The notes below the pieces were generated by a model, which searched no databases, was not told the origin of the DNA, and was given only the letters and a program-made list of their open reading frames with translations. A stretch of 32,000 nt of DNA, from assembly GCA_031412735.1 (NCBI GenBank), contig JANODO010000050.1, positions 1 to 32,000 on the forward strand. Reading direction: 5' to 3'. A program made the translations under genes and the position numbers. This DNA comes from Rariglobus sp. Its GTDB lineage: Bacteria; Verrucomicrobiota; Verrucomicrobiia; Opitutales; Opitutaceae. Positions 1 through 20,200 of this stretch are shown here, in pieces. Numbering within the stretch: the first letter of the stretch is position 1; each line of letters starts with the position of its first letter.

Positions 1-117
1 ATCAGCCGCGAGATTGCCCGCGGTAAGTTCCCCAAGCCTGTCAGAATTGGGCGGGTCCTCCGCTTCGCCCTCTCTGATGTCGAAGCCTACGCTGCCGGTC
101 TCCATTCCTCAAAATGA
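1..117 (+). CDS. AlpA/Xis-like helix-turn-helix protein, C-terminal fragment (5' end lies left of the window)
   Basis: Frame 1 is open from the window edge and reads ISREIARGKFPKPVRIGRVLRFALSDVEAYAAGLHSSK. The TGA at 115-117 overlaps the integrase ATG (ATGA). The sequence resembles the small phage/island DNA-binding proteins that precede integrases. Confidence 0.45.
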   Translation: MSREIARGKFPKPVRIGRVLRFALSDVEAYAAGLHSSK

Positions 118-1424: not shown

Positions 1425-1451
1425 CGCTCTACCAGGCTAAGCTACGTCCCG
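1375..1451 (-). tRNA. tRNA-Pro (anticodon CGG)
   Basis: 77-nt cloverleaf folded by hand on the minus strand. Acceptor CGGGACG/CGTCCCG; D-arm GCTT-AGCCTGGTA-GAGC; anticodon arm CTACA-TTCGGGT-TGTAG; T-arm GAGAG-TTCGAAT-CTCTC; discriminator A and an encoded CCA. Confidence 0.9.
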
Positions 1452-3650: not shown

Positions 3651-3735
3651 GCCCACGAAACACACGAAATGACACGAAAGAATCAGAGCAAAGGAGCAGG
3701 GTTTCTTTTCGTGTCATTTCGTGTGTTTCGTGGGC
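3651..3735. repeat. compound hairpin element A (CACGAAA flavour)
   Basis: GCCCACGAAACACACGAAATGACACGAAA (3651-3679) is perfectly complementary (29/29) to 3707-3735, with a 27-nt loop. Each arm is three tandem (A/G)CACGAAA-like units. It sits between the MOSC stop and the mobA start. Confidence 0.95.
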
Positions 3736-4240: not shown

Positions 4241-4324
4241 GCCCACTAAAGACACGAAAGGACACGAAAGAATGGGAGCGAAAACCACGGTTTCGTTTCG
4301 TGTCATTTCGTGTGTTTCGTGGGC
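4241..4324. repeat. compound hairpin element B (CACGAAA flavour)
   Basis: The left arm GCCCACTAAAGACACGAAAGGACACGAAAG pairs 26/30 with 4295-4324. The right arm is identical to that of element A over about 27 nt. It sits between the mog stop and the MOSC start. Confidence 0.9.
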
Positions 4325-4824: not shown

Positions 4825-5036
4825 GCCCACGGAACACACGGAATACACGGAAGAAGTCGGAAACGGAGAAAACGGAGGTCGGGGTTTTAAACACGAATCA
4901 CTAAATACACGAAAATGAAAGCCTCCGATCTAGGTCCGACTTTCGTGTATTTCGTGTGTTTCGTGGTTAACCGGATTGGGAAATCGGTCTCTGTTTTTTG
5001 ATCGATTCTTCCGTGTGATCCGTGTGTTCCGTGGGC
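4825..5036. repeat. compound hairpin element C-outer (CACGGAA flavour) carrying a second element in its loop
   Basis: GCCCACGGAACACACGGAATACACGGAAGA (4825-4854) pairs 28/30 with 5007-5036. It sits between the moaC stop and the mog start. Confidence 0.9.
4887..4970. repeat. compound hairpin element C-inner (CACGAAA flavour, degenerate left arm), nested in the loop of C-outer
   Basis: The right arm TTTCGTGTATTTCGTGTGTTTCGTGGTTAA (4941-4970) is well preserved. The left arm TTAAACACGAATCACTAAATACACGAAAA has substitutions and a 1-nt deletion. Confidence 0.75.
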
Positions 5037-6068: not shown

Positions 6069-7259
6069 TTAGCGGCAGGGGAGGACTTCAACTTCCGCAG
6101 TCAGCGGTGTGGTGGGGACGCGTAGGAGTCCTTCGGTTTTGGCGAGGAGCGTGAGGTCGGAGGAGTCGCGCCACGGGAGCGGCAGGACCCGGCGGGTGGC
6201 ACCCTCGTCTGACCAGAGGCAAGGCCACCAGGTTTCGCGCGGGTCGGGGCGCAACTCGGCTTCGGGGGCGAGCGTAGCGTGCACGAGCGCGGTGGGTTCG
6301 GTGCCGGCGAGGCGGGCGAGCACGCGTTTCACGAAGAGATGGAAACAGACGAAGTGAGAGAGCGGGTTGCCCGGCAGGCCGAAGGCGAGGCGTCCGTCGC
6401 GCGAGGCGGCGATGAAGGGCTTGCCGGGGCGGCTGGCGACCTTGTCGCAGTGAATTTTGAAGCCCTGGGCGGCGAGCAACGCGCCGGTATGGTCGTGGTC
6501 GCCGACGCTGGCTCCGCCGCTGATGAGGATAATGTCGGCGTCGGTGGAGAGCGCGGCGGCGAGTGCATCGGCGGTGGCGGCACGGGAGTCGGAGACGCGT
6601 TGTTGCCAAATCAGTTCGGCGTGGGCGTCGGCGAGAAGCGCGGCGATGAGCGTGGAGTTGGAATCGCGGATCTGGCCGAAGGCGGGTTGGGCTTCGGGGG
6701 GGACGAGTTCGCCGCCGGTGACGAGGTGGGCGACGCGGGCGCGGCGGGACACGAGCGGCGTGGTTGCGCCGAGGGAGGCGAGGAGGGCGAGTGCGCCAGC
6801 GTTGAGTGGCTGGCCGGTAGCGAGGAGTTGGGCACCGGCGCAGGCTTGAGAGCCGCGGCGGCGGATGTGTTTGGTCGAGGGCGGCTGGAGGAGTTCGAGT
6901 TGGTTTGCGGACGAGCCGACGAGGCGGGTGTCCTCCTGCATGATGAGGGCGGCGGCGGGGTCGGAGGGAAGTGCGCTGCCGGTGAGGATGCGGAGGGCGG
7001 TGCCGACGGGGGGGGCGGCGGCGGGCGCGGGAGAGCCGGGGGCGATGGTCCCGGCGAGGGTGACGGTGCCGGGGAGTTGGGTGGAGTGGACGAGGTAGCC
7101 GTCGATGGCGGAACGGTCGAAGGGCGGCTGGTCTTCGGGCGCGAGGATGGGCTCGCGTAGAATGAGGTTGTGCGTCGAGGCGAGCGGGACGCGCTCGGCA
7201 GGGAGGGGCGACGGAACGAGGGCGTCGAGGCGTATCCAGAGATCGGCGACGGAGATCAT
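6069..7259 (-). CDS. moeA: molybdopterin molybdotransferase MoeA
   Basis: PPFDRSAIDGY, ILISGGASVGDHDH, ASRPGKPF and GLPGNPLSHFVCFHLFV match MoeA. ATG 7259 (MISVADLW) is preferred over TTG 7280; it overlaps the GxxExxY stop as TGATG. Confidence 0.9.
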   Translation of the reverse strand: MISVADLWIRLDALVPSPLPAERVPLASTHNLILREPILAPEDQPPFDRSAIDGYLVHSTQLPGTVTLAGTIAPGSPAPAAAPPVGTALRILTGSALPSDPAAALIMQEDTRLVGSSANQLELLQPPSTKHIRRRGSQACAGAQLLATGQPLNAGALALLASLGATTPLVSRRARVAHLVTGGELVPPEAQPAFGQIRDSNSTLIAALLADAHAELIWQQRVSDSRAATADALAAALSTDADIILISGGASVGDHDHTGALLAAQGFKIHCDKVASRPGKPFIAASRDGRLAFGLPGNPLSHFVCFHLFVKRVLARLAGTEPTALVHATLAPEAELRPDPRETWWPCLWSDEGATRRVLPLPWRDSSDLTLLAKTEGLLRVPTTPLTAEVEVLPCR

Positions 7260-7759
7260 CAAGCGCGGAAAGAAATCCAAGCTACCGAGCTGGCGACTAG
7301 CAGGGTGACAAGCGAGAGCAGTCCTACGCCGGATGATCGTTCGTCTTGAAAAAGTGATCCGCAGGCCACGCGTTTTATTCCCTCTTTCATGACGGGCACG
7401 TTGAAGTTGAGCAGGAGCCCGAGAGACCTACGTTTCAGTTTAAGATAAGTAAGGAGCTGTGCTTGGTGGATCGGCTGGAACGAGTGGATCGATTTCAGTT
7501 CGATGATGAGTTCGTCCTCGACGATAAAATCCAGGCGATAGTCGCAATCGAGCGACACTCCCTTATAAGTAAGCGGGATGTCGCATTGGCGTTCATAACG
7601 CAGACCAGCGTGGGTTAATTCGTATGCGAGTGCCTCTTCATAGGCTGATTCGAGCAAGCCGGGGCCGAGTTCACGGTGCACCTCAATGCACAAGCCGATC
7701 ACACGATGGGAGAGTTGGTTGATGCGTTCTTTCTTAGCTTCGTTTTCTGGCGTCAGCAT
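7259..7759 (-). CDS. GxxExxY protein (PD-(D/E)XK nuclease-like fold) with a hydrophobic C-terminal extension of about 34 aa
   Basis: LSHRVIGLCIEVHRELGPGLLESAYEEALAYEL carries the GxxExxY signature, and YRLDFIVEDELIIELKSI carries a D...ExK core. GLLLNFN and IKRV mark the usual family C-terminus, after which the ORF runs on to 7259. It is visibly AT-richer than its neighbours. ATG 7759 is chosen because the track extension is hairpin arm. Confidence 0.85.
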   Translation of the reverse strand: MLTPENEAKKERINQLSHRVIGLCIEVHRELGPGLLESAYEEALAYELTHAGLRYERQCDIPLTYKGVSLDCDYRLDFIVEDELIIELKSIHSFQPIHQAQLLTYLKLKRRSLGLLLNFNVPVMKEGIKRVACGSLFQDERSSGVGLLSLVTLLVASSVAWISFRA

Positions 7760-7805
7760 AGAGGTGGAGATGTAGGGTGTGTTGGAGTGAAGGCGGGCGG
7801 AGTTT

Positions 7806-7906
7806 TTCACCACAAAGGCACGAAGACACAAAGGTCGGATAGAGAAATCAGCAGGTGAGATTGTGCACTTTATGAGAACTTTGTGTCACTGTGTCTTTGT
7901 GGTTAA
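7806..7906. repeat. compound hairpin element D (CACAAAG flavour)
   Basis: TTCACCACAAAGGCACGAAGACACAAAGGT (7806-7835) pairs 24/30 with 7877-7906 (AACTTTGTGTCACTGTGTCTTTGTGGTTAA). It sits between the moaE stop and the GxxExxY start. Confidence 0.85.
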
Positions 7907-7925
7907 AATCAGCGATGCATTGAGC

Positions 7926-8318
7926 TCATTGCAACGTGTCGGTTTTCCAGATGGGCACGTCTTGTTTGAGGCGGTCCATGAAGGCGGCGAGGAGGGCGAA
8001 GGCGGGGGCGCGGTGCTTGGCTTGGACGGCGATGTGAATGGCGGCCTCGCCCACAGGGATGATGCCGATGCGATGTTGGACGAAGACGGAGTGGCAGGGG
8101 TGCGCGGCGGCGAGTTCGGTGAGTAGGCGGTGCATCACGGTTTCGGCCATCGGTTGGTAGGCTTCGTAAACGAGGGCGGAGATGGGCTGGTCGTTTTCCG
8201 AGCCGCGCACCAGTCCGGTGAACGTCGCGAGGGCACCGATGTCGGGGTTGGCACGCGAAGCGGGCGGGACGATGACGGCGGAGGAAATGAGGATCTCAAT
8301 GTGCACGGCGGATTTCAA
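7926..8318 (-). CDS. moaE: molybdopterin synthase catalytic subunit MoaE
   Basis: ATFTGLVRG, YEAYQPMAE, HRIGIIPVGEAAIHIAVQAKHRAPAF and MDRLKQDVPIWK match MoaE. The start is TTG 8318 or GTG 8306. Confidence 0.88.
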   Translation of the reverse strand: MKSAVHIEILISSAVIVPPASRANPDIGALATFTGLVRGSENDQPISALVYEAYQPMAETVMHRLLTELAAAHPCHSVFVQHRIGIIPVGEAAIHIAVQAKHRAPAFALLAAFMDRLKQDVPIWKTDTLQ

Positions 8319-8358
8319 CCAGGTGGCTCGCGAAGGATACGAAGGGAGCGAAGGTAAA

Positions 8359-8598
8359 TCAGCCTCCCGAGACGGGAGGGATGACGGCGATTTCGTCGTT
8401 GGGTGAAAGGGTGGCGTCGGCGGTGAGGAAGTCGTTGTCGCGGGCGAGGCGGGAAGATGCGCGCAACGAGGCCAGGTCTGGGTGGCGTTGGATAAGTTGG
8501 TCCCAGAAGGCGGCAGTCGAGAGCGGTGTGGAAACCGGGATTTCCTCGGTCGATAGGCCGGTGATGCGGCGGGCGTGGGCGAAGTAGAGAACGGTCAT
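8359..8598 (-). CDS. moaD: molybdopterin synthase sulfur carrier subunit MoaD
   Basis: 79-aa ThiS/MoaD-size protein ending in PPVSGG (C-terminal Gly-Gly), immediately upstream of moaE. Confidence 0.85.
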   Translation of the reverse strand: MTVLYFAHARRITGLSTEEIPVSTPLSTAAFWDQLIQRHPDLASLRASSRLARDNDFLTADATLSPNDEIAVIPPVSGG

Positions 8599-8801
8599 GT
8601 AGTTGCCTGGCTGGGTGTTTGTGGGCGGGACCGTGTGAAGCAGTGGGTGACGTGGATTGGTTTATCCCAGCGGATGAGCGGTGATCAGTCGCGGGCGTTC
8701 ATCGTCCGGGCGGACTTCCCAGACCGTGCGGATGCAGGGATTGCTTTTGTCGGGAGTCGGTAGGTTGCAATCTAGAGTGTATTTGGTGCCGAAGCCTGTG
8801 T

Positions 8802-11800
8802 TCACGGAGACCTCTCCACTTGATTGGCCAGCAGGGTGGCGACTACCGGATTACCGGTCGGTGCCGCCAACTCCACGGCGTAGCCTTTGCCTCCTTCGTA
8901 AATACTTACGACTGCGCCAATGGTGCCGACTGCAAAATCGTGCCCCTCTTCGACGACGGGCACTAGTAAACGCACGCAATCGTGCTCGGCAATGGCGGGC
9001 GCGATGGAGAGTTGGTAGTGGGAATCCAGCTCGGTGTGCAGGGATAGGATCGCGGCGATGCGCCGGACGTGGTGGGTGAACTGCTGCGCCTCGTCACTCG
9101 TAAGGGCGCGACCCAGCAAATCGACCTCGCGGTAGCTGAGCCACTTCTTGAGCACCTGATAGCCGCCGAGGGTGTAACTCCAGACCGCCACGGGAACGTC
9201 TTTCCACCGGGTGGTGGCGTTGAGGTGGATGTCGATAAAGCCGTCGCCGCGCGTGCCGGTGCTTGTCTGGCCGGGGCCGGGCATGGTGACGCCGTTTTGA
9301 CCGGCGTAGCCCCAACGTGCTTTGAGCGAGAGGTCGGGGGTCTTCTCACCCGGTTTGAGGGCGAGTTCACCGAGGCCTTTGAGGTCGACGCGGACTTTGA
9401 GGCTGGTGACGCCTTCGACGGGCGTTTCAGGATCGAGTAGTGCGGCGATTTTGCGGCCAAGGCCGGCTCCTGAGCGGAGAACTTGGGCGGTCTTCGGCAG
9501 GGGCACGCGGGGCCAATCCTGTCTGAGAGCCCCGGCATTTTCTTCCCGATAAAGCGGTGCGTGTAGCACGGCGACGATGTGGAAGAACAGGTCTTCTGGT
9601 CCGGCCTCCAATTCCGCCAGATAGTCCTTCGCGAAATCCGTCAGGTTGGGCTGCGGGCCGCTAGGCCCCGATGATTCGAAGAGATCGGACTGCGGTTCTT
9701 TGGAAGCTGCGTCGTCAGCCGCCGCGTGTAGATAGAGCGGGAAGAAATTGGAAAGCCCGTTGGCGAAGTTATCAGCGAGCAGAGTTGTCACGGTGCCACG
9801 ATCCCAGCCGTCTCGGCTTTCTGACTTCCTTGCCTCAATCCAGAAGTTTCCAGAAAAGACGTGTTTCACATACTCGGGACGTTTCTCGTCGAGGAGTTTT
9901 GTGTGTGGATTCCAATATAGCCAACGGGCATCGAAGGGGCGATAAAGGTAGCGGAAGAAGCGACCACTTTCGATGCCGTGATTTTGCAAATCTCCCCTAA
10001 CCTTCTTCGCATCAAAGCGGCCTGAGTCGTCCTTCAGTCCTGCTAGCCTGCCATCAAGCGATGAGAACGATACCTTTGGGTTGAAGTAGCGTTGCATACG
10101 TTCTTCCAACGCGCCGCGAGCAACGTCTATCAGCGAATCATCGCGACTAGTTTTCACTCCAGGAAAAGACGTGCCTAACAATTCGGGGAGCAGTTGCCAA
10201 TTTTCGTAGTCTTCACGAACGCCTATTGGGATGAACGGCAGCCCGAATTTGAGCGCGGGTTTTAGAGCCTGAGACTGCTTTGGGATTTCCAAAGAGACTT
10301 CCAACTCTGCTCGCTTCAATTTTCCCCACCAATGCCGAAAGTTAAGATCCGCGTGAGGATTGTAGGCAGTCGCATCGGTATCCGCCGCACGCGGCTTGCC
10401 CTTCGGTCTGCGCTCCATGAGCGCGATAGCCGTTCCCACCTGAATGCCTTCGCGATTTTTCTCGGTCGAGAAGACGCTTGGGTCGGGCTGACCATCGGGT
10501 GTCTTTTTGCCGGTCTTGTATTTATCGCCGTTGAGGCAGTCGATGGTGATGGAGTCGAAGACCTCCATGAAGCGCTCGCGCATGCCGGTGTGGGACAGGC
10601 CGTCGAGCCAGGAGTAATTGCTAATGTAGCAGATGATGCCCTTGGCATCGGGACGAGGCCGGCCGGGTTTGTCGTCATCGGACTTCGGCACGCCTTCGGC
10701 GATGCGGCGCTCGGCCATCCGGAAAAAGCGGACGTAAAGATCGTTGAGTCCCTGACCCTGCGGAGCGGCAACCGTCTTCACGTGGCGGTAGGATTCGGAG
10801 AGATTGCGTTCCTCTTCTACGGCCAGGCCGGCGTAGCCGTCGTAGGGAGGGTTGCCGAGGACGACGATGATCTCGGACTTCTGCTTCACGTGGTCGGCGG
10901 CGTCGCGTTCGTCTGAAAACTCGGAGAATAGGACTTGGTCTTTCGGGTGTTTGACGGGCACCCAGCCGGTGAGGGCGTTGGTTAGGAATACCCCGGCGCG
11001 CTCGTCCTTACCGTGGTCGAGCTCGGCGCCCCAGCGGGTGAGCATGAGGTCGATCTGGAGATGGGAGACGACGTAGGGCGCGGGCAGGAGCTCAAAGCCG
11101 TAGAGGCGATGTTTGGCGACTTCGCGGATTTTCAGCGCAGCTTGGGCTTCGCCGTAGCCCTCGACGAGGCGGCGGCGGATGAGTTTGAGCGTCTCGACGA
11201 GGTAGGCACCGGTGCCGCAGCAAGGATCGAGGACGACGACGGAGGGATCGGCGAGGCCATCGGGTAGGTTGAAGTTTTCGCGCAGGGCGCGGTCCACGCT
11301 GCCGACCATGTAGCGGACGATCTCGGGCGGGGTATACCAGACGCCGAAATCCTTGCGCAGCTCGGGGTCGAACTCGGCGAGGAAGGGCTCGTAGAAGTAT
11401 TGCACGGCCTCGCCCATGTCGTAGCGAGCGAAGAAACTGTTGCGCTCCACGCGGGCCAGGCACTCCTCGGTCCAGTCGAGCACCTCTTCAAGGTTGAGCG
11501 CACGGATTTTTTTAGGATCGCTGGCGAGCTGGATGAAGAGCGTGCGCAGGATAGGAAGGCCGAGATGCTGGGCGGAGAGTCGCCACTGGAAACGCTCGCC
11601 GGGTTTGGGGTGGGCTTCGTGCCAGAGCACCCAAGCGGAGAAGATGCCGTAGAAGAGCGTCTGGATGAGCGTGGACTGGAAGAAATGGACGCCCTTCTCG
11701 CCCTCGAAGTGAACGCCAAGAGCGTCGGACAGGGCCTTTTTCACCGGTTCAAGCGTGCCCATCGGGGCCACCTCCACGCGGGCGCGAGCTTCACGGGCAT

Positions 11801-12386
11801 AGCTGGCGAGGTAAGTGGCGAGGTCTTGAGGTGTGGCGATACGTGCGGTGGAGAGCAGGGCGCGGCGGAGGAATTGCCACAGGCGCTCATTCTCGGGGTG
11901 CTGGGGATTCTGGCGGAGGGTGTGAACCTTATCCCAGAATTCGTTTTCGCTGGCGGCGACGATGTAGCGTTCGCCTTGGACCGCCTTGCCGTCTTTCCAT
12001 GACCAGAGCGAGAAGGCGCGGTAGTTGGTAAGGAGGATCTGGCCGTAGTGCTCCAGGTAATTGCGGACCTGCGGGGTCGATTCGAAGGAGGAGAGATCCT
12101 TCTCGATGGGTTTGATTTCGACGACGCCGCGCTCGGGTTTGAGTTGGCCGAAAAGGGAGGCGCGGTCGTCGCCGTATTTCTTGAGTTCTTTGGCGGAGAA
12201 GAGGCCGCCGTCGGGAATACCGGCTCCGCTGTTCGCCGGATGGATTACGGCTGTGATCTTGGGTTTGAGGGTTTCTCCGACCGCGTTGAGCAGTTTGGAG
12301 AGTGCGGGATAGCCGCTGGTCTCCGGCACGCCGATGCCTGAGATGCTATGAAGTTCTACAAGGTAGTCGGCGACGGGGGATGACAT
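8802..12386 (-). CDS. single-chain Type IIG-like N6-adenine DNA methyltransferase (MmeI/YeeA/Type ISP-C-terminal family), possible N-terminal PD-ExK nuclease, C-terminal DUF4926-like domain
   Basis: 1194 aa with an ATG start. YFYEPFLAEFDPELRKDFGVWYTPPEIVRYMV is the block typical of MmeI/PglX/ISP methylases. VVLDPCCGTGAYL is SAM motif I and VVLGNPPYDGYAG is catalytic NPPY motif IV. WSYTLGGYQVLKKWLSYRE matches the conserved C-terminal domain of Type ISP/YeeA enzymes. No helicase or Mrr domain is apparent. The last ~65 aa (VRLLVPVVEEGHDFAVGTIGAVVSIYEGGKGYAVELAAPTGNPVVATLLANQV) look like DUF4926. Confidence 0.85.
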   Translation of the reverse strand: MSSPVADYLVELHSISGIGVPETSGYPALSKLLNAVGETLKPKITAVIHPANSGAGIPDGGLFSAKELKKYGDDRASLFGQLKPERGVVEIKPIEKDLSSFESTPQVRNYLEHYGQILLTNYRAFSLWSWKDGKAVQGERYIVAASENEFWDKVHTLRQNPQHPENERLWQFLRRALLSTARIATPQDLATYLASYAREARARVEVAPMGTLEPVKKALSDALGVHFEGEKGVHFFQSTLIQTLFYGIFSAWVLWHEAHPKPGERFQWRLSAQHLGLPILRTLFIQLASDPKKIRALNLEEVLDWTEECLARVERNSFFARYDMGEAVQYFYEPFLAEFDPELRKDFGVWYTPPEIVRYMVGSVDRALRENFNLPDGLADPSVVVLDPCCGTGAYLVETLKLIRRRLVEGYGEAQAALKIREVAKHRLYGFELLPAPYVVSHLQIDLMLTRWGAELDHGKDERAGVFLTNALTGWVPVKHPKDQVLFSEFSDERDAADHVKQKSEIIVVLGNPPYDGYAGLAVEEERNLSESYRHVKTVAAPQGQGLNDLYVRFFRMAERRIAEGVPKSDDDKPGRPRPDAKGIICYISNYSWLDGLSHTGMRERFMEVFDSITIDCLNGDKYKTGKKTPDGQPDPSVFSTEKNREGIQVGTAIALMERRPKGKPRAADTDATAYNPHADLNFRHWWGKLKRAELEVSLEIPKQSQALKPALKFGLPFIPIGVREDYENWQLLPELLGTSFPGVKTSRDDSLIDVARGALEERMQRYFNPKVSFSSLDGRLAGLKDDSGRFDAKKVRGDLQNHGIESGRFFRYLYRPFDARWLYWNPHTKLLDEKRPEYVKHVFSGNFWIEARKSESRDGWDRGTVTTLLADNFANGLSNFFPLYLHAAADDAASKEPQSDLFESSGPSGPQPNLTDFAKDYLAELEAGPEDLFFHIVAVLHAPLYREENAGALRQDWPRVPLPKTAQVLRSGAGLGRKIAALLDPETPVEGVTSLKVRVDLKGLGELALKPGEKTPDLSLKARWGYAGQNGVTMPGPGQTSTGTRGDGFIDIHLNATTRWKDVPVAVWSYTLGGYQVLKKWLSYREVDLLGRALTSDEAQQFTHHVRRIAAILSLHTELDSHYQLSIAPAIAEHDCVRLLVPVVEEGHDFAVGTIGAVVSIYEGGKGYAVELAAPTGNPVVATLLANQVERSP

Positions 12387-12431
12387 GGGTGATAAAACGG
12401 GTGAGCTGGGGCGCGGTCGGCACCATTTACG

Positions 12432-12698
12432 TTATGCCGCGATCATGTTGACGGCGTCGTTGTAAACCCAGCCCTCGTTGCCGGTGTTGTAGAGCGGGTC
12501 GATGAAGATGCAGTTCACCTGGCCGGCGTAGAGCGGGAGAAGGGTTTTGAGGGCGTGGAGATTGTCGCCCTCGACGAGAAGATTGCCGGAACCGGGGTCG
12601 CCGCAGCCGAGTTCGGGCACGTCGCGGAGCAGCCGGTAGGGGACTTCGCGGTGGTGGTTAGCGACGGCGTCTTTGCCGATCCAGGAAAGCGTGGGCAT
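12432..12698 (-). pseudogene. N-terminal remnant (88 aa) of a Type III Mod-like DNA methyltransferase
   Basis: LSWIGKDAV ... LLVEGDNLHALKTLLPLYAGQVNCIFIDPLYNTGNEGWVYND matches the N-terminal LxWxGK ... GDNLxxLK ... IYIDPPYNTG block of Type III Mod enzymes. The catalytic DPPY reads DPLY, and the ORF stops right after this block, 45 nt before the large methyltransferase. Confidence 0.7.
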
Positions 12699-12824
12699 GG
12701 TTCGTTTTGATCCTGCGAGCCGATGAAGGAACTCTGCAACTACGGGATACGTCCATTTTAGGTCGCCGAGGTGAGCGCGGCCTAGTCCTGCTCCAGCATC
12801 TGGTGTTTTTGGGTTAGGGGATTG

Positions 12825-12945
12825 TTAACCATAAAGACACGGAGGCACAAAGGACTCACAAAGACCGGAAAACTGACGATTACAGCAGAGGGCAATCGAG
12901 GCTGAACTTTGTGAGGCCTTTGTGCCTTGGTGTCTTTGTGGTGAA
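12825..12945. repeat. compound hairpin element E (CACAAAG flavour, 39-nt arms), inverted relative to D
   Basis: TTAACCATAAAGACACGGAGGCACAAAGGACTCACAAAG (12825-12863) pairs 34/39 with 12907-12945. The asymmetric ends are TTAACC on the left and GGTGAA on the right, swapped relative to element D. Confidence 0.88.
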
Positions 12946-13067
12946 TTCGGGATAGCTGATGTTCGGCATATGCCTAATGATTGGGTTTTTATTGCAAAAA
13001 ATCAGAGGCAGCGAGGATTCACGAAAACCGGAAATGTATAACCTTATAGGTAATACTTTGGTTTGGG

Positions 13068-14039
13068 TTAGCCGCCGATGGCGGTCATGGGGCGGTCGGG
13101 GATGTAGTCGGATTGGAAGGTGTGGTCCTTGGGCTTGTTGGCGATGGCTTCGGTGAGCAACGCGTCGAGGTGGGCGTGGCCGGCGCGGACCGGGGCGAGC
13201 AGGTCAATCTCGCCGTGGCGGCCCAAACAGGGGCGGAGCTTGCCGTCGGACGTGAGCCGGAGCTTGTTGCAGGTGCCGCAAAAATCGGGAGTGGTGAGCG
13301 CGCCGATGAAGCCGACGAGGGCACCGTTTTGCGCGCGGGCGTAGCGGGCGGGGCCGTGGCCGGTGCGGTAGTCAGGGAGGGTTTCGAGGGGGCCCAGTTC
13401 GGATTCGATGCGGGCGCGGGCGCCTTCGCAGGAGAGGAAATTTTCGGAGCTGAGGACATCGGTGCGCGTGAGCGGCATCAGCTCGATAAAGCGCACCGGG
13501 GTGCGGTGCTCGGCGGCGAAACGCACGAGGGGCACGAGCTGGTCTTCGTTGACGCCGCGCATAAGCACCACGTTGAGCTTCACGACTTCGAAATCGGCGG
13601 CGAGGGCGGCATGGATTCCGCCGAGGGCGTCGGCGAGGCGGCCGCCGGTCACGCGGCGGTAGGCGTCGGCGTCGAGTGCGTCGAGGGAGACGTTGACGGA
13701 GGTGACGCCGGCGTTGCTGAGGTCGCGGGCGACGGCGGCCAGGCGCGTGCCGTTGGTGGAAAGACCGAGCGAGGCGGTGGTGGGCAACGCGGCGATGCCG
13801 GCGGCGATCGAGACGAGGTCGGGTCGGAGCAGCGGTTCGCCGCCGGTGAGGCGGAATTTGCGGAAGCCGAGCGAAGACGCGGCCGTGGCGATGCGGATGA
13901 GTTCGTCGGCGGTGAGGTGGTCGGGGCGCTGCGCCCAGCCTTTGTAGCCTTCGGGCATGCAGTAGAGGCAGCGCTCGTTGCACCGGTCGGTGACGGAGAT
14001 ACGCAGGTAATCGATGTGGCGTCCGAAGGGATCGGTCAT
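13068..14039 (-). CDS. moaA: GTP 3',8-cyclase MoaA (radical SAM)
   Basis: RISVTDRCNERCLYCMPEG carries the CxxxCxxC radical-SAM cluster. FRLTGGEPLLRPD and the C-terminal cluster CGTCNKLRLTSDGKLRPCL are also present. Confidence 0.95.
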   Translation of the reverse strand: MTDPFGRHIDYLRISVTDRCNERCLYCMPEGYKGWAQRPDHLTADELIRIATAASSLGFRKFRLTGGEPLLRPDLVSIAAGIAALPTTASLGLSTNGTRLAAVARDLSNAGVTSVNVSLDALDADAYRRVTGGRLADALGGIHAALAADFEVVKLNVVLMRGVNEDQLVPLVRFAAEHRTPVRFIELMPLTRTDVLSSENFLSCEGARARIESELGPLETLPDYRTGHGPARYARAQNGALVGFIGALTTPDFCGTCNKLRLTSDGKLRPCLGRHGEIDLLAPVRAGHAHLDALLTEAIANKPKDHTFQSDYIPDRPMTAIGG

Positions 14040-14082
14040 GGGAATTTCAGAGCGTAACCCGTGCTAGACGCGGAGCACGGAC

Positions 14083-14130
14083 AAAAAAGGACGCGACGAA
14101 GGGATATTTTCATGAAACCCATCATCGCGC
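14083..14130 (-). terminator. rho-independent terminator candidate ending the nap/globin transcription unit
   Basis: The minus strand reads GCGCGATGATGGG-(14-nt loop)-CCCTTCGTCGCGT followed by CCTTTTTTG. The stem is 13 bp with one mismatch and two G-U pairs. It lies between the DUF2249 gene and moaA. Confidence 0.4.
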
Positions 14131-14157
14131 CGCGTGATTTTTCAGCGAGCGGGGTGT

Positions 14158-14496
14158 TTAATGGTGGCTGCTTCCGCAGCCGCCGGGAAGCGCACCGGCG
14201 GCGAGGGCGGACATGCTGGCGGGATTAGCGGCGACACGCGTGATGCGGACCGCCGCGAAGTCGTCTTCGTTGACCAGATAATCCCAGCTGAAGCAGCCCG
14301 GGGCAATCGCTTCGAATTGGTAACGCAGGGGCTCGGGCGCGTGGCCGTTGACGAGGACGAAGCTCGCGCCGGTGACGAGTGCATCGGCGCGTTCCAAAAT
14401 GAGCGGGTGCTTGGTGCGGCAAGGAATGTCGCGGGCGTCGAGAAGCTCGGCGGCGGGAACAGTGGCGAGGGCGGGATGAAGTGTGGTGGTGAGCAT
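14158..14496 (-). CDS. DUF2249 domain-containing protein
   Basis: ELLDARDIPCRTKHPLILERADALVTGASFVLVNGHAPEPLRYQFEAIAPGCFSWDYLVNEDDFAAVRITRV fits the DUF2249 pattern (LDVR ... HP ... L ... G ... L ... H.P.PL..Q ... W.Y). ATG 14496 is chosen; the track start at 14577 is GTG. Confidence 0.65.
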   Translation of the reverse strand: MLTTTLHPALATVPAAELLDARDIPCRTKHPLILERADALVTGASFVLVNGHAPEPLRYQFEAIAPGCFSWDYLVNEDDFAAVRITRVAANPASMSALAAGALPGGCGSSHH

Positions 14497-16967: not shown

Positions 16968-17783
16968 TCAGTCCGATCTGGCTGGTTGGGCGGATCGGAC
17001 GGATCCGATGACCGACAGTGGCGGCAGGGTCTCGCGGACGGCGTCGAGCGCGTGGCATTGCAGGCAGTTTTGACGCTGCGGGTGGGTCGTCTTGACGACG
17101 CTGGAGCCACCCGGACCGTGGCAGCTGACGCAGTTTTGGCGCATTGCAGTGGTGTGCGGCATGGTCGGCGGGGCACCGGTGAAGGCGCGCGTGCCGCCGG
17201 CGGGCGCGGGGAGTCCGTTGAAGGCGTTGGCGAGGACGGGCGTGGCTTGCGCGAGTGGGGGTGACGTAAGCGCGGAGCCCGGCCCGGCGGAGGGCGCATG
17301 GCATTGGATGCAACTGGTGTAGGCCGGGTGGCTCATCTGGGGCACGTCGATGCGGTCGATGCGCGTGGGCAGGCCGTGGCAGGCGAGGCAGGAGGTGGAT
17401 TTGTGTTGGTCGATCGGATGCGGGACGGTGGGCGGCGCGCCGGCGTAGGCGCGGCGGGCAGCGCGGCGGGTGAGCAGGGCGACCATTTCCTCAGAGGTGG
17501 GGCGCGGTGTGGCGGCGTTAAAGGCCGGGGCGGGCGGGAGTGTCGCGAGGTCGCTGTGCCAGGCGTGGTTGGGCTGGCGGGTGCGGTCGGCCAAGTCGGC
17601 GTAGTGAGGGGCTTCGGGCGCGGACAAAATCGCCTCGGTGGAGGGTTCCGCGACGAGCGGGCCGCGCCGGTATTCGGCGGCGGAGCGGTCAGTCTGAAGC
17701 AGGCCCATGAAGTAGCCGCTCACGCCGGTGGTGAAGGCGATGAGGGCGGCGACAACCGCGAGCTTGCGCATCGGGATCTTCAT
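16968..17783 (-). CDS. membrane-anchored tetrahaem cytochrome c built from two NapB-like dihaem repeats
   Basis: There are four CxxCH motifs (CLACH, CIQCH, CVSCH, CLQCH). Each pair is preceded by the NapB-type motif APPT(V/M)PH. The N-terminal TM segment is LAVVAALIAFTTGVSGYFMGLL. ATG 17783 overlaps the napA stop (ATGA). Confidence 0.7.
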   Translation of the reverse strand: MKIPMRKLAVVAALIAFTTGVSGYFMGLLQTDRSAAEYRRGPLVAEPSTEAILSAPEAPHYADLADRTRQPNHAWHSDLATLPPAPAFNAATPRPTSEEMVALLTRRAARRAYAGAPPTVPHPIDQHKSTSCLACHGLPTRIDRIDVPQMSHPAYTSCIQCHAPSAGPGSALTSPPLAQATPVLANAFNGLPAPAGGTRAFTGAPPTMPHTTAMRQNCVSCHGPGGSSVVKTTHPQRQNCLQCHALDAVRETLPPLSVIGSVRSAQPARSD

Positions 17784-20200
17784 GACGCGGCCGTGCGGCG
17801 GATGATGCGCACGGCGCACTTTTTGTAATCAGGCTCCTTGGAGATCGGGCAGACGTCGCCGAGAGTGATGGTGTTGATCAGAAAATTTTGATCGAAGAAC
17901 GGCACGAAGACGGAGCCGCGCGGGGGTTGGCTGCGGCCGTTGAGCCAGACGGGGAGGGCGAGGCGACCGCGGCGGGTTTCCAGCGTAGCCATGTCGCCGT
18001 TGCGCAAGTCGAGCGCGGCGGCGTCGGCGGGATTGAGTTCGACGTAGGCGTTGGGCATGGAGCCGCGCAGTTGCGGCACGCGCATGGTCATCGTGCCGCT
18101 GTGCCAGTGCTCGATGACGCGACCCGTGCAGAGCCAGAACGGGTAATCGGCGTCGGGTTCCTCGGTGGCGGGCTCGTAGGGGTTGAACCAGATGAGGGCG
18201 CGGTCGTCCTTGGTGACGGAGTGGTAGAACTGGATGCCGGCGCCTTTTTTGACGAACGGGTCGCTGAACTCCATGAAGCGGAAACGCGTTTCTTTGAAGG
18301 AGCCGTCGGCTTGTTCGACCACCGGCCAGCGCAGGCCGCGGGTCTTCACCAGCTCGTCGTAGGGGGCGAGGTGTTTGTGTTTATGGTAGGTGAAACGCCG
18401 ATACTCCTCGAAGAGCGCGCGGTCGGTGTTGATCTCGTAGTAGCGGGCGAAGTCCCAAGCGGGCACCTCGCGTCCCTCGGCGTCGTGAAACGTGAAGAGG
18501 AACTTGCCGTCTTTGTCCTGCATGCCCGGGTGACCGAGTTCGAACAGGCGACGGGCGAGGGCGATGGTCATCCAAGCGTCGGGACGCGCCTGACCGGGCG
18601 GATCGACCTGCTTGAACCATTGTTGGGTGCGTCGCTCGGAGTTGCCGTAGACGCCGTTCTTTTCGACCCAGAGCGCGGCCGGGAGAACCAAGTCGGCGAG
18701 CGCGGTGGTGGCGGTGGGGTAAACGTCGGAGACGATGAGGAACTTGTCGGCGAGACCGGCCTTGCCGTTGAACGTGCGGGCGAGGTCGGGGAGCGTTTGG
18801 CCCGGGTTGGTGACCTGGACGAAGATCGTGTGGATGTCGCCTCCCTTGTCGGTGGGCGTGCAGAACTTCTCCCAGAGCTGGATCGTGTGGTAGCCCGGCT
18901 TGGGGTTGATGCGGCCGGCGGGGACATGCCAGAGCTCCTCGCACTCGGCGCGGTGCTCGGGGTTGGCGACGAGCAGGCCGCCGGGAAGGGCGTGGCACAA
19001 CGTGCCGACCTCGCGGGCGGTGCCGCAGGCGGACGGTTGGCCGGTGAGCGAGGTGGGCGCGTCGCCGGGGCGGCCCCAGTGTCCGGACAGCAAGTGGATG
19101 CCGTGAACCAGGCGGTTGATGGCGGTGCCTCGCGTGTGCTGGTTCATGCCCATGCACCACAGGCTGGTGATGCGCAGTGACGGATTTCCAAAGAGATCGC
19201 CGAGCAGGCGTATCTTTTCCTCGGATACGCCGGAGAGTTTGGAGACGTAGGCGGGGGTGTAGAGAGCGAGCGCCTCACGGTAGGCCTCGAACGTCATGGG
19301 CTGGCCGTTGAGCGAGACGGGCGCGGTGTCCTGGCGGAAGTTGCAGTGTTTCTCGACGAACGCGCGGTTCCAGGTGCCGTTGGCGAGGAGCAGGTGGGCG
19401 ATGCCGTTAGCGATGGCGAGGTCGGTTTGCGGGCGGAACTCCAGGTAGTGGTCCGCGTATTCGGTGGTGCGGGTGCGGCGCGTGCCCAGGTCGATGAGTG
19501 TGACCTTTTCGCCGCGCGTGCGGCGGTCGATGAAACGAGAAAAGAGGACCGGGTGCATCTCGGCGGGGTTGTTGCCCCAGAGGATAATCACATCGGCCGC
19601 GTCGAGGTCGTCGTAGCAACCGGCGGGTTCGTCCACGCCGTAAACCGAGATGTAGCCGGTGACGGCGGACGACATACACAGGCGGGCGTTGGGCTCGATG
19701 TGGTTGTTGGCGAGGCCGGCTTTCATGAACTTCTGCGCGGCGTAACCCTCGGGGATCGTCCATTGTCCGCTGCCGTAGAAACCGAAGCCGGCGGGTCTCT
19801 GCATGATGCGGCGGGCCATGACGTCGATGGCTTCCTCCCACGTGATGTTTTCGAGCTGCCCGTTGCGGCGGAGTTGCGGGGTGGTGAGGCGGTCTTGGCC
19901 GTAGAGAATGCCGCCGACGTGGTAGCCCTTCAAGCAGAGCAGGCCTTTGTTCACCTCGGCCTGTGGATCTCCTTGGATGGCGACGACACGGCCGTCTTTG
20001 ACGCCGACACGCACATGGCAGCCGGTGCCGCAGAAGCGGCAAGGAGCTTTGTCCCAGCGCACGCCGTCGGCGGTGACGGTGGCGGTCGGTGAGGTGGCGA
20101 AGGCGGGTTCACCGGGCGCGGGGGCCGCGCCGAGTCTGCGAGCGATGACGGCGCTGGCGGCGGCGAGGGCGGTCGTGCGAAGGAAGTCGCGGCGTTGCAT
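17780..20200 (-). CDS. napA: periplasmic nitrate reductase catalytic subunit NapA
   Basis: Twin-arginine signal MQRRDFLRTTALAAASAVIARRLGA and N-terminal FeS motif CRFCGTGCHVRV ... LCLKG. It is an 806-aa Mo-bisMGD enzyme with NapA-like length and blocks, flanked by NapD-like and NapB-like genes. Confidence 0.93.
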   Translation of the reverse strand: MQRRDFLRTTALAAASAVIARRLGAAPAPGEPAFATSPTATVTADGVRWDKAPCRFCGTGCHVRVGVKDGRVVAIQGDPQAEVNKGLLCLKGYHVGGILYGQDRLTTPQLRRNGQLENITWEEAIDVMARRIMQRPAGFGFYGSGQWTIPEGYAAQKFMKAGLANNHIEPNARLCMSSAVTGYISVYGVDEPAGCYDDLDAADVIILWGNNPAEMHPVLFSRFIDRRTRGEKVTLIDLGTRRTRTTEYADHYLEFRPQTDLAIANGIAHLLLANGTWNRAFVEKHCNFRQDTAPVSLNGQPMTFEAYREALALYTPAYVSKLSGVSEEKIRLLGDLFGNPSLRITSLWCMGMNQHTRGTAINRLVHGIHLLSGHWGRPGDAPTSLTGQPSACGTAREVGTLCHALPGGLLVANPEHRAECEELWHVPAGRINPKPGYHTIQLWEKFCTPTDKGGDIHTIFVQVTNPGQTLPDLARTFNGKAGLADKFLIVSDVYPTATTALADLVLPAALWVEKNGVYGNSERRTQQWFKQVDPPGQARPDAWMTIALARRLFELGHPGMQDKDGKFLFTFHDAEGREVPAWDFARYYEINTDRALFEEYRRFTYHKHKHLAPYDELVKTRGLRWPVVEQADGSFKETRFRFMEFSDPFVKKGAGIQFYHSVTKDDRALIWFNPYEPATEEPDADYPFWLCTGRVIEHWHSGTMTMRVPQLRGSMPNAYVELNPADAAALDLRNGDMATLETRRGRLALPVWLNGRSQPPRGSVFVPFFDQNFLINTITLGDVCPISKEPDYKKCAVRIIRRTAAS

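What the first reader, a model, noticed from the sequence alone, without database searches (positions are those of the whole stretch)
8802..12945. A restriction-modification-like cassette (giant single-chain methyltransferase, Mod remnant and hairpin E) splits moaA from moaD-moaE
moaA and moaDE belong to the same pathway and are both on the minus strand, yet they are separated by about 4.3 kb. This interval contains hairpin element E, an 88-aa Type III Mod N-terminal remnant and a 1194-aa MmeI/YeeA/ISP-C-terminal-type N6-adenine methyltransferase. The large protein has no helicase or Mrr domain, so it is not a canonical Type ISP enzyme. It has no visible partner genes (no Res, and no BREX or DISARM components). 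It is therefore either a self-contained Type IIG/IIL restriction-modification enzyme or an orphan methylase. Being wedged in a Moco operon, it is probably co-transcribed with it.
Basis: partly seen in the sequence, partly recalled or inferred. Interest (0 to 1): 0.7.

Follow-up and report, generated by a model that had tools for sequence, protein, structure and literature searches.

The report
Restriction enzyme gene splitting Moco operon
About 4.4 kb of foreign DNA lies between two molybdenum-cofactor genes of an Opitutaceae bacterium; it carries a one-protein restriction-modification enzyme (DrdV/MmeI-like, Type IIL) plus gene debris, and it is an ordinary member of a large known enzyme family.

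Summary
On the minus strand, moaA (13068-14039) and moaD (8359-8598) are 4,469 bp apart. The gap holds a strong hairpin (12825-12945), an 88-aa Type III Mod N-terminal pseudogene (12432-12698) and a 1194-aa ORF (8802-12386).

The large protein has the layout of a Type IIL single-chain R-M enzyme. A helical spacer follows, then a gamma-class m6A methyltransferase (DPCCGTG, NPPY) and a DrdV/Type-ISP-type target-recognition domain. DrdV is the best sequence and fold match. There is no helicase or Mrr domain, and 84 related loci share no conserved partner gene.

Close relatives have moaA and moaD 4-57 bp apart, so the segment is a lineage-specific insertion.

Three points are new:
- The last 66 residues are an in-frame fused DUF4926 (toxin-immunity) domain.
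- A DUF6883 toxin fragment follows the ORF.
- Hairpin E belongs to a hairpin repeat type also found in related genomes, not to the cassette.

Enzyme activity and co-transcription are untested. Verdict: new member of a known kind, low to moderate interest.

The parts
12825..12945 (-). Hairpin E. A 39-nt-arm inverted repeat built from CACAAAG-type units with a 43-nt loop. It is a hairpin repeat type shared with related genomes (the same type precedes GxxExxY genes there), not a cassette-specific element.
   Evidence: I1, 87% complementary. (-56.4 kcal/mol, z = -7.8). Searches show related hairpins at 7806-7906 and upstream of GxxExxY genes in L175 and L174.
12432..12698 (-). Type III Mod methyltransferase N-terminal remnant. 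An 88-aa pseudogene in which DPPY has become DPLY and which is truncated after about residue 84.
   Evidence: PADLOC MTase_III 5e-41, profile positions 1-84 of 542. (70-88% identity to Mod N-termini; alignment shows the P-to-L change and the break after YNDAVN).
11907..12386 (-). Large protein residues 1-160: PD-(D/E)XK endonuclease domain. D59 is at 12210-12212 and E90-x-K92 at 12111-12119.
   Evidence: D59, E90 and K92 invariant in 37 sequences. (model pLDDT 85.6, alpha-beta-beta-beta-alpha-beta core). (top PDB fold hits are all PD-(D/E)XK nucleases, including the BpuSI N-domain; probability 0.90-0.96, E 7e-3 to 4e-2). (coordinates checked).
11397..11906 (-). Residues 161-330: all-helical spacer (connector) between the nuclease and methyltransferase domains.
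   Evidence: helices 164-347. The layout matches the MmeI and DrdV descriptions.
10407..11396 (-). Residues about 331-660: gamma-class N6-adenine methyltransferase domain. Motif I DPCCGTG is at 11208-11228 and motif IV NPPY at 10842-10853.
   Evidence: N6_Mtase, MmeI_Mtase. (both motifs invariant). (DrdV 1.5e-28 and 5.7e-43)..
9003..10406 (-). Residues about 661-1128: target-recognition domain of DrdV/Type ISP type plus C-terminal helices. This is the most variable part of the family.
   Evidence: Type_ISP_C 1.3e-41, residues 738-1093. (identity 0.34-0.56 over residues 641-920, against 0.6-0.85 elsewhere). (DNA homology to L083 and L096 is interrupted here).
8802..9002 (-). Residues 1129-1194 plus stop: an in-frame fused DUF4926 domain. 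DUF4926 is the predicted immunity partner of DUF6883/BECR-Tox3 RNase toxins. The fusion is unique to this copy.
   Evidence: all homologs stop after HYxxS[VI]. (DUF4926 30.4 bits against cutoff 29.1). (gene-to-gene DNA homology ends at 9015). (literature). The AF2 model is poor here, pLDDT below 50.
8662..8805 (-). 47-aa ORF whose GTG start overlaps the stop of the large gene. It is the C-terminal fragment of a DUF6883 (BECR-Tox3) toxin and lacks the N-terminal 64 profile positions.
   Evidence: PF21814 2e-10, profile positions 65-109 of 110. (translation).
8600..13028 (-). Extent of the lineage-specific inserted segment between moaA and moaD, about 4.43 kb.
   Evidence: homology to L004 ends at 13029; homology to the relatives resumes at 8598-8599, or 8591 for L003. 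(the first ~40 nt after the moaA stop are shared with L004). (L171 has moaA stop, TGTC, moaD ATG). (GC 0.593 against 0.628).

Best explanation
The interval holds horizontally acquired DNA whose only intact gene encodes a self-contained, single-polypeptide Type IIL (Type IIG-class) restriction-modification enzyme of the DrdV branch.

Inferred mechanism, by analogy with DrdV and MmeI:
- The C-terminal target-recognition domain reads a short asymmetric DNA site.
- The gamma-class methyltransferase flips one adenine in that site and N6-methylates it, on one strand only. This marks host DNA as self.
- When several enzyme molecules are bound to unmodified sites, as on incoming phage or plasmid DNA, they oligomerise. 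[quoted passage not shown] No ATP and no partner proteins are needed.

The rest of the interval is debris from a defence or mobile-element neighbourhood:
- a truncated Type III mod gene upstream;
- a DUF4926 immunity gene that lost its start and became fused in frame to the end of the R-M gene;
- a 5'-truncated DUF6883 toxin gene downstream.

The segment landed in the moaA|moaD junction of a long same-strand Moco/nitrate-reductase gene array, in one Opitutaceae lineage only.

What is shown: domain architecture, intact catalytic motifs, solitary gene context and insertion status. What is inferred: enzymatic activity, recognition site, hemi-methylation, oligomeric cleavage and the transcription pattern.
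For: Architecture:
- Pfam gives Type_ISP_C, N6_Mtase and MmeI_Mtase.
- PADLOC REase_MTase_IIG models match at 1e-73 and 8e-66. The second covers residues 111-1093.
- DrdV (7lo5) is the best PDB sequence hit, at 1.5e-28 for the single sequence and 5.7e-43 for the profile.
- DrdV is also the best fold hit to the full-length model: E 3e-35 over about 1215 aligned columns, ahead of the Type ISP enzymes LlaBIII and LlaGI, then CamA, BrxX/PglX and BpuSI.

Nuclease domain:
- P58-D59-G60, E90 and K92 are invariant in 37 sequences spanning 52-82% identity.
- The N-domain model (pLDDT 85.6) has an alpha-beta-beta-beta-alpha-beta core. D59 lies just before the second strand (60-64) and E90 in the third (88-91), with K92 immediately after it.
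- Its top PDB matches are all PD-(D/E)XK nucleases: 9y1l, 1wdj, 6okh and the BpuSI N-domain.

Methyltransferase: DPCCGTG and NPPY are invariant.

Family behaviour:
- The layout equals the published MmeI and DrdV layout.
- The TRD is the most variable region, as expected for specificity switching.
- The gene is solitary. In 84 distinct related loci the commonest neighbour, Mrr, occurs in only 5. DNA homology between loci is confined to the ORF.
- More than 8000 homologs exist. The N-domain alone has about 1000 clusters at 50% identity.

Insertion:
- Sites lacking this cassette occur in L171 (4 nt), L003, L004 and L005 (10, 57 and 7 bp), and other lineages carry different inserts at the same junction.
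- Composition is mildly lower in GC.
Against: - No enzymatic or methylome data exist, so activity is inferred.
- Fold support for the isolated N-domain is only marginal by E-value (7e-3 to 4e-2). No Pfam nuclease model, including the MmeI N-terminal family, matches residues 1-346 even at E <= 10.
- The D-to-ExK spacing is 30 residues, longer than I recall for MmeI.
- The 66-aa C-terminal DUF4926 fusion is unique to this copy and is modelled with pLDDT below 50. It might impair the enzyme, or it might be an assembly or sequencing artefact in a MAG contig.
- In the closest subclade (74-80% identity) the gene is followed by an Mrr gene in 3 of 4 contexts, and that gene is missing here. A functional link is therefore not excluded.
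- The full-length model is of moderate quality: pLDDT 72.9, pTM 0.58.
Confidence: 0.8

Rival explanations
1. The gene is a functionally orphan methyltransferase or a decaying R-M gene. It still methylates, but restriction has been lost through the C-terminal DUF4926 fusion or through subtle changes. The cassette is then on its way to pseudogenisation, like its neighbours.
For: - Everything around the gene is degraded: the Mod remnant and the DUF6883 fragment.
- The normal stop codon has been lost and 66 foreign residues are appended.
- That extension is modelled poorly.
- Single-chain R-M enzymes can tolerate loss of cleavage because methylation alone is harmless to the host.
Against: - The 3.4-kb core ORF is uninterrupted.
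- It keeps every column that is invariant across the 37-sequence family alignment, including D59/E90/K92, DPCCGTG and NPPY.
- Identity to the nearest homolog is 80% along the whole core.
- The fusion lies after the terminal helices of the family, not inside a domain.
Confidence: 0.13
2. The protein is the methyltransferase/recognition subunit of a multi-gene defence system, such as BREX, DISARM, MADS, or a split Type-ISP-like system with an Mrr nuclease in trans. Its partners lie elsewhere in the genome or have been deleted.
For: - There are weak PADLOC hits to mad2 (3e-9), PglX (2e-4) and DrmMI (2e-3).
- BrxX/PglX appear among the fold hits.
- In the closest subclade an Mrr_N+Mrr_cat gene follows the homolog directly or after 2 genes (L088, L086, L083).
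- Type ISP enzymes use an Mrr-like nuclease domain.
Against: - Those hits cover only the shared methyltransferase core and score far below the Type IIG models (1e-73).
- The protein has its own conserved nuclease motif.
- Mrr is absent from all but 5 of the 84 related loci (64 of which have more than 1.5 kb of downstream sequence), and no other neighbour recurs.
- There is no Mrr, helicase, PglZ, BrxC or DrmA-like ORF in the 32-kb window.
Confidence: 0.05
3. The large gene is an ancestral, resident part of the Moco operon region rather than an insertion.
For: It lies on the same strand as the operon. GC3 (0.73) is only marginally below the host range. There is no integrase, transposase or target-site duplication at the borders.
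Against: - Four close relatives have moaA and moaD 4-57 bp apart.
- Others carry unrelated inserts at the same junction.
- The gene occurs in unrelated contexts in Planctomycetota, Vicinamibacterales, Caulobacteraceae and other groups.
Confidence: 0.01

Closest known systems
DrdV (Deinococcus wulumuqiensis), a Type IIL R-M enzyme; PDB 7LO5/7LVV
   Same: - Single chain with an N-terminal endonuclease, a helical connector, a gamma-class m6A methyltransferase and a TRD of the Type ISP kind, with no ATPase.
- Best sequence hit (5.7e-43 with the family profile) and best fold hit (E 3e-35, full length).
- The published domain order is identical.
   Different: - Only 18-19% identity in the structural alignment.
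- The N-terminal 320 residues do not align by sequence.
- The window protein is about 100 residues longer in its core (1128 against 1029 aa) and carries an extra DUF4926 domain.
- The recognition site and cleavage offset are unknown.
MmeI family (Type IIL sensu stricto); PDB 5HR4
   Same: - The same five-part layout: PD-(D/E)XK domain at about 1-155, helical spacer, gamma-class methyltransferase, TRD and C-terminal helices.
- The gene is solitary.
- The TRD is variable.
- Expected to protect the host by single-strand methylation.
   Different: Only the MmeI_Mtase Pfam model matches, and barely (27.6 bits against cutoff 27). The only Pfam hits are Type_ISP_C, N6_Mtase, MmeI_Mtase, DUF4926 and Eco57I, so no other MmeI-specific domain model matched. 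The TRD is of Type_ISP_C type instead.
[quoted passage not shown]
   Same: The methyltransferase and TRD are homologous: 2.8e-31 with the profile, fold E about 1e-28, and Pfam Type_ISP_C 1.3e-41.
   Different: There is no N-terminal Mrr-like nuclease and no SF2 helicase-like ATPase motor. A small PD-(D/E)XK domain and a helical spacer take their place. NCBI's name for homologs, 'type ISP restriction/modification enzyme', therefore overstates the relationship.
BpuSI (Type IIG); PDB 3S1S
   Same: Single-chain nuclease-methyltransferase-TRD enzyme. Its N-terminal nuclease domain is among the top fold hits for residues 1-165: 155 aligned columns, TM 0.43 normalised to the query.
   Different: The overall match is much weaker (E 4.5e-10, 11% identity), and the TRD is of a different type.
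BREX PglX/BrxX methyltransferase
   Same: Shares the methyltransferase and TRD fold.
   Different: PglX has no nuclease domain of its own and works only with BrxA, BrxB, BrxC, PglZ and BrxL. None of these is present here, and the PADLOC PglX score is only 2e-4.

Membership tests
Type IIL / Type IIG single-chain R-M enzymes (DrdV branch) | N-terminal PD-(D/E)XK endonuclease domain with a catalytic D...(D/E)xK motif | tested here: met
   D59, E90 and K92 are invariant in 37 homologs. The model has an alpha-beta-beta-beta-alpha-beta core at pLDDT 85.6. The top fold hits are all PD-(D/E)XK nucleases, but with marginal E-values of 7e-3 to 4e-2. No Pfam model matches.
Type IIL / Type IIG single-chain R-M enzymes (DrdV branch) | Gamma-class N6-adenine methyltransferase domain: SAM motif I precedes the catalytic NPPY | tested here: met
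   DPCCGTG (387-393) and NPPY (512-515) are both invariant. N6_Mtase and MmeI_Mtase match. The region aligns with the DrdV methyltransferase.
Type IIL / Type IIG single-chain R-M enzymes (DrdV branch) | One C-terminal TRD in the same chain, shared by both activities | tested here: met
   Type_ISP_C matches at 1.3e-41 over residues 738-1093. The region aligns with the DrdV TRD. It is the most variable region of the family.
Type IIL / Type IIG single-chain R-M enzymes (DrdV branch) | No ATPase or translocase, and no separate M, S or R subunits (solitary gene) | tested here: met
   No helicase or ATPase domain is found. No conserved neighbour occurs in 84 loci. No partner is present in the window.
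Type IIL / Type IIG single-chain R-M enzymes (DrdV branch) | Methylates one strand of an asymmetric site and cleaves at a fixed distance when several sites are bound | not testable with these tools
   This needs a methylome and biochemistry. The behaviour is described for MmeI and DrdV.
Type ISP (LlaGI/LlaBIII) | N-terminal Mrr-family nuclease domain | tested here: not met
   There is no Mrr_cat hit. The LlaGI and LlaBIII alignments start at query residue 325 or later.
Type ISP (LlaGI/LlaBIII) | SF2 helicase-like ATPase motor and coupler | tested here: not met
   There is no helicase or ATPase Pfam hit. Residues 161-330 are an all-helical spacer.
MmeI family sensu stricto | Matches to MmeI-specific domain models beyond the methyltransferase | tested here: not met
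   Only MmeI_Mtase matches, at 27.6 bits against cutoff 27. Residues 1-346 give no MmeI-related hit even at E <= 10. The TRD matches Type_ISP_C instead.
BREX (PglX) / DISARM (DrmMI) / MADS (mad2) | Strong match to the system's methyltransferase model, plus the system's other genes nearby | tested here: not met
   PglX scores 2e-4, DrmMI 2e-3 and mad2 3e-9, all over the methyltransferase core only. NCBIfam MAD2 scores 28 bits against cutoff 720. No partner genes are present.
Type III Mod methyltransferase (the 88-aa ORF) | Full-length beta-class methyltransferase (about 540-650 aa) with a DPPY catalytic motif, a SAM-binding motif and a TRD | tested here: not met
   Only profile positions 1-84 of 542 are present. 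DPPY reads DPLY, and the sequence diverges after YNDAVN and stops. The large gene starts 45 nt downstream, so this is a pseudogene remnant. No res gene is present.
DUF6883 (BECR-Tox3) / DUF4926 toxin-immunity pair | Complete toxin gene followed by a separate downstream DUF4926 immunity gene | tested here: not met
   DUF4926 is fused to the R-M gene and lies upstream of the toxin fragment. The toxin keeps only profile positions 65-109 of 110. The usual order is taken from bioRxiv 10.64898/2026.08.28.747851.

The most novel reading that the evidence does not exclude
The CACAAAG-arm hairpin next to the cassette (hairpin E) may be the footprint of a 'hairpin + GxxExxY nuclease' element. That unit repeatedly occupies intergenic junctions of operons in Opitutaceae: moaE|moeA here and in L171 and L175, and between nuo genes in strain TAV5. 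On this reading, such hairpins make operon junctions into capture sites for foreign defence genes, and the R-M cassette was taken up at one of them. A second, independent possibility is that the in-frame DUF4926 immunity domain is functional. The protein would then be a bifunctional R-M enzyme that also neutralises BECR-Tox3 RNase effectors.
Probability: 0.08. Interest if true: 0.55.

Novelty: new member of a known kind. Interest (0 to 1): 0.22.

Why it matters
- **Annotation.** Database names for homologs are 'type ISP restriction/modification enzyme' or 'N-6 DNA methylase'. The architecture is that of a DrdV-like Type IIL enzyme with its own nuclease domain. This applies to a very large, mostly uncultured family: more than 8000 homologs, and about 1000 clusters at 50% identity for the N-domain alone.
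- **Enzyme engineering.** Type IIL enzymes are of practical interest because specificity for cutting and methylation changes together. A well-populated DrdV-type branch with a hypervariable TRD is a source of new specificities.
- **This organism.** A defence gene sits inside an essential cofactor operon on the same strand. This may tie its expression to Moco and nitrate-reductase expression. It also shows that the moaA|moaD junction is a recurrent insertion point in this clade.

None of this is conceptually new.

Tried and rejected
- **Source contig of the exact protein (P0001).** Not on record, so the source genome could not be inspected beyond the window.
- **Mod remnant, DUF4926 and DUF6883 pieces against 168 fetched loci (tblastn).** No hits. 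The debris is not a regular companion of the R-M gene.
- **Mrr as an obligatory partner.** Found only in the closest subclade and in 5 of 84 loci, and absent from the window. Rejected as a defining component.
- **Rfam scan of the whole window.** Only a tRNA was found. There is no family for the hairpins and no Moco riboswitch.
- **Promoter and terminator consensus scan of 7200-14300.** Nothing above shuffle expectation, so it says nothing about co-transcription.
- **Pfam on residues 1-346 at E <= 10.** No nuclease family matched. Support for the nuclease domain rests on motif conservation and fold.
- **Composition as evidence of foreignness.** Only a mild deviation, not decisive alone.
- **Database hits to the Mod remnant.** All of the top 120 are 154 aa or shorter. 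I considered a conserved 'mini-Mod' gene family. The alignment shows differently truncated or frameshifted fragments of ordinary Mod genes, so I treat them as fragments or pseudogenes, possibly combined with a length bias in the search.
- **GxxExxY homologs in the first 170 loci.** None found. They were found only after a dedicated protein search.
- **Apparent long match in L135.** This is a frameshifted homolog, not an insertion.

Full report
**1. What is in the sequence**

On the minus strand the window carries a long same-strand gene array. In order it holds:
- a NapA-like molybdopterin oxidoreductase (17780-20200) and cytochromes;
- cupin, globin and DUF2249 genes;
- moaA (13068-14039);
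- the interval in question;
- moaD (8359-8598) and moaE (7926-8318);
- a GxxExxY/PDDEXK_3 gene (7259-7759);
- moeA (6069-7280), moaC, a MoCF_biosynth-domain (MoaB/Mog-type) gene, a MOSC gene and mobA.

The moaA-moaD gap is 4,469 bp.
- Hairpin E has arms at 12825-12863 and 12907-12945, 39 nt each and 87% complementary. It folds at -56.4 kcal/mol with z = -7.8.
- An 88-aa ORF lies at 12432-12698.
- A 1194-aa ORF lies at 8802-12386.

**2. The 88-aa ORF**

It matches the first 84 positions of PADLOC Type III methyltransferase models, with PDLC03644 at 5e-41. It is 70-88% identical to Mod N-termini in the protein database. In the alignment the catalytic DPPY reads DPLY. The sequence departs from the family after YNDAVN and stops four codons later. 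The large gene starts 45 nt downstream. This ORF is therefore a dead 5' stump of a Type III mod gene. There is no res gene.

**3. The 1194-aa protein**

Pfam finds Type_ISP_C (residues 738-1093, 1.3e-41), N6_Mtase and a borderline MmeI_Mtase. It finds no helicase or Mrr domain. PADLOC's Type IIG enzyme-methyltransferase models match at 1e-73 and 8e-66. PglX, DrmMI and mad2 match only weakly, over the methyltransferase core.

A 37-sequence alignment spanning 52-82% identity shows these as invariant (coordinates checked):
- P58-D59-G60, E90 and K92;
- DPCCGTG (387-393);
- NPPY (512-515).

The full-length AlphaFold model has pLDDT 72.9. Its best PDB match is DrdV, a Type IIL enzyme (7lo5), at E 3e-35 over about 1215 aligned columns. 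The Type ISP enzymes LlaBIII and LlaGI follow, then CamA, BrxX/PglX and BpuSI. By sequence, DrdV is also first, at 1.5e-28 for the single sequence and 5.7e-43 for the family profile over residues 320-960.

Residues 1-165 modelled alone reach pLDDT 85.6. They form an alpha-beta-beta-beta-alpha-beta core, with D59 just before the second strand, E90 in the third and K92 immediately after it. Their top PDB matches are all PD-(D/E)XK nucleases: 9y1l, TT1808 (1wdj), 6okh and the N-domain of the Type IIG enzyme BpuSI. Probabilities are 0.90-0.96, but E-values are only 7e-3 to 4e-2.

The order of parts is nuclease (about 1-160), helical spacer (about 161-330), gamma-class methyltransferase, TRD and terminal helices. 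This is the published order for MmeI and DrdV. The DrdV paper also states that its methyltransferase and TRD are highly similar to those of Type ISP enzymes. That explains the Type_ISP_C hit and the database name 'type ISP restriction/modification enzyme' carried by homologs.

The TRD stretch 641-920 is the least conserved part of the family. This is expected for enzymes that diversify specificity.

**4. Solitary gene**

I examined homologs at 74-80% identity and 80 further metagenomic loci at 45-60% identity. DNA similarity to the window is confined to the ORF, 12391 to 9015. Clustering all flanking ORFs of 84 distinct loci gives no conserved neighbour. The most frequent is an Mrr-type nuclease gene, in 5 loci. 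The window has no Mrr and no other defence partner.

Together with the protein's own nuclease motif, this favours a self-contained R-M enzyme over an orphan methylase or a subunit of a larger system.

**5.

- All homologs stop right after '...HYxxS[VI]', which corresponds to query residue 1128. The window protein runs on for 66 residues. Scanned alone, these pass the Pfam threshold for DUF4926.
- Overlapping the stop codon, a 47-aa ORF (8662-8805) matches only the last 45 positions of DUF6883.
- A 2026 preprint classifies DUF6883 as the BECR-Tox3 RNase toxin, with DUF4926 as its usual downstream immunity gene.

The R-M gene has therefore been fused in frame to an immunity-gene remnant and is followed by a truncated toxin gene. 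The order is reversed relative to the usual pair. I cannot tell whether the fusion is harmless, harmful or an assembly artefact. The model is poor there.

**6. Insertion status**

MoaA places the window in Opitutaceae, at 91% identity to a Rariglobus MAG and 88% to an Opitutus MAG.

- The gap between moaA and moaD is 10, 57 and 7 bp in L003, L004 and L005.
- L171 shares the GxxExxY gene at 94% identity in the same position. There the moaA stop is followed by TGTC and then the moaD ATG.
- Homology with relatives ends at 13029/13070 and resumes at 8599. The insert therefore spans about 8600-13028.
- Other lineages carry unrelated inserts at the same junction: a small secreted-protein ORF in L001, a reverse-strand sensor-like gene in L002, and a DUF1275 membrane protein in L175, with a similar membrane-protein ORF in L006. 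The junction is therefore a recurrent insertion point.
- Composition is only mildly different. GC is 0.593 against 0.628. GC3 is 0.73 against 0.74-0.88 for the host genes measured in the same operon/gene array, mobA to the NapA-like gene.

**7. Hairpin E**

It is not specific to the cassette. Hairpins with arms made of CACGAAA or CACAAAG units occupy four other intergenic gaps of this operon: 3651-3735, 4241-4324, a nested pair at 4825-5036, and 7806-7906. They recur at the corresponding places in L002 and L171.

The CACAAAG subtype (hairpins D and E) is the type that precedes GxxExxY genes here. It also precedes them in L175 (-62.6 kcal/mol) and in Opitutaceae TAV5 between nuo genes (-47.5 kcal/mol). 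Hairpin E is such a hairpin without a GxxExxY gene. Rfam has no family for it.

**8. Co-transcription**

The cassette is on the operon strand. The consensus scans find no promoter or terminator above chance. A small terminator-like stem sits in the loop of hairpin E. This does not settle the question, which remains untested.

**9. Verdict**

The interval is a lineage-specific insertion. Its one intact gene encodes a DrdV-like Type IIL single-chain R-M enzyme with intact nuclease and methyltransferase motifs. It is flanked by a dead mod stump and toxin-immunity debris, one piece of which is fused to its C-terminus.

The family is large and its kind is known, so this is a new member of a known kind. 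The remaining curiosities are modest: the DUF4926 fusion, the recurrent use of the moaA|moaD junction, and the hairpin-GxxExxY association.

Noticed in passing
window 3651-3735, 4241-4324, 4825-5036 (nested double hairpin), 7806-7906, 12825-12945; also L002 6321-7047 and L171 5150-6296: A family of long, very stable hairpins (-34 to -96 kcal/mol) whose arms are built from 3-4 tandem CACGAAA or CACAAAG units. They fill five of the intergenic gaps of the Moco operon and recur at the corresponding positions in related Opitutaceae contigs. Rfam has no match. They look like a lineage-specific REP/MITE-like element with unknown effect on operon expression.
   Followed up: partly
window 7259-7906; L175 2838-3507; L174 2834-3501 (Opitutaceae TAV5); L171 2905-3501: A GxxExxY (PDDEXK_3) gene preceded by a CACAAAG-arm hairpin sits between moaE and moeA, here and in two relatives. 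A homolog with the same kind of hairpin sits between nuo genes in strain TAV5. 'Hairpin + GxxExxY' may be a unit that inserts between operon genes. Many homologs lie on ~1-kb contigs, as repeats do. There is almost no literature on it.
   Followed up: partly
moaA|moaD junction: L001 7342-7890, L002 2881-4068, L006 9036-9729, L175 1529-2209: The same junction holds different unrelated genes in different Opitutaceae lineages: a small secreted-protein ORF in L001, a reverse-strand sensor-like gene in L002, and a DUF1275 membrane protein in L175, with a similar membrane-protein ORF in L006. It is empty in others. It is a recurrent insertion point.
   Followed up: partly
L088 11397-12317; L086 9485-10396; L083 15373-16285: In the closest subclade of the R-M gene (74-80% identity), an Mrr_N+Mrr_cat Type IV-like nuclease gene follows it. 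It comes either directly or after a small module: a DUF433/DUF5615 pair in one case, an AAA_15/21 ATPase plus a 201-aa gene in another. The Mrr genes of two different contexts are 90% identical, which suggests a co-travelling mini defence island. The window copy lacks it.
   Followed up: partly
window 8662-9002: The DUF4926 (immunity) and DUF6883 (toxin) remnants are in the reverse of the usual toxin-then-immunity order. The toxin fragment starts exactly at the stop codon of the fused gene (GTGA overlap). The rearrangement history is unexplained.
   Followed up: no
proteins P0121-P0240; L169 8001-8309: All of the 120 best database matches to the Mod stump are themselves 154 aa or shorter, and several lie on contigs of 100 kb to 1 Mb. 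The alignment shows varied truncations and frameshifts. One of them (P0143) breaks at almost the same residue as the window copy and lies in a mobile element with an integrase, a resolvase and a Prim-Pol gene. This may reflect frequent decay of this Mod family, long-read frameshift errors, or a length bias of the search.
   Followed up: partly
window 114-1451: A tyrosine-recombinase (Phage_integrase) gene at 114-1424(+) overlaps the 3' side of a tRNA gene at 1378-1451(-). This is the usual signature of the edge of an integrated element. It is 7 kb from the cassette and separated from it by housekeeping genes.
   Followed up: no
window 13029-13067 and L004 10970-11012: The first ~40 nt after the moaA stop, including a small stem (GTATTACC/GGTTATAC), are conserved with L004. 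They appear to be the native moaA 3' end that was retained upstream of the insertion.
   Followed up: no
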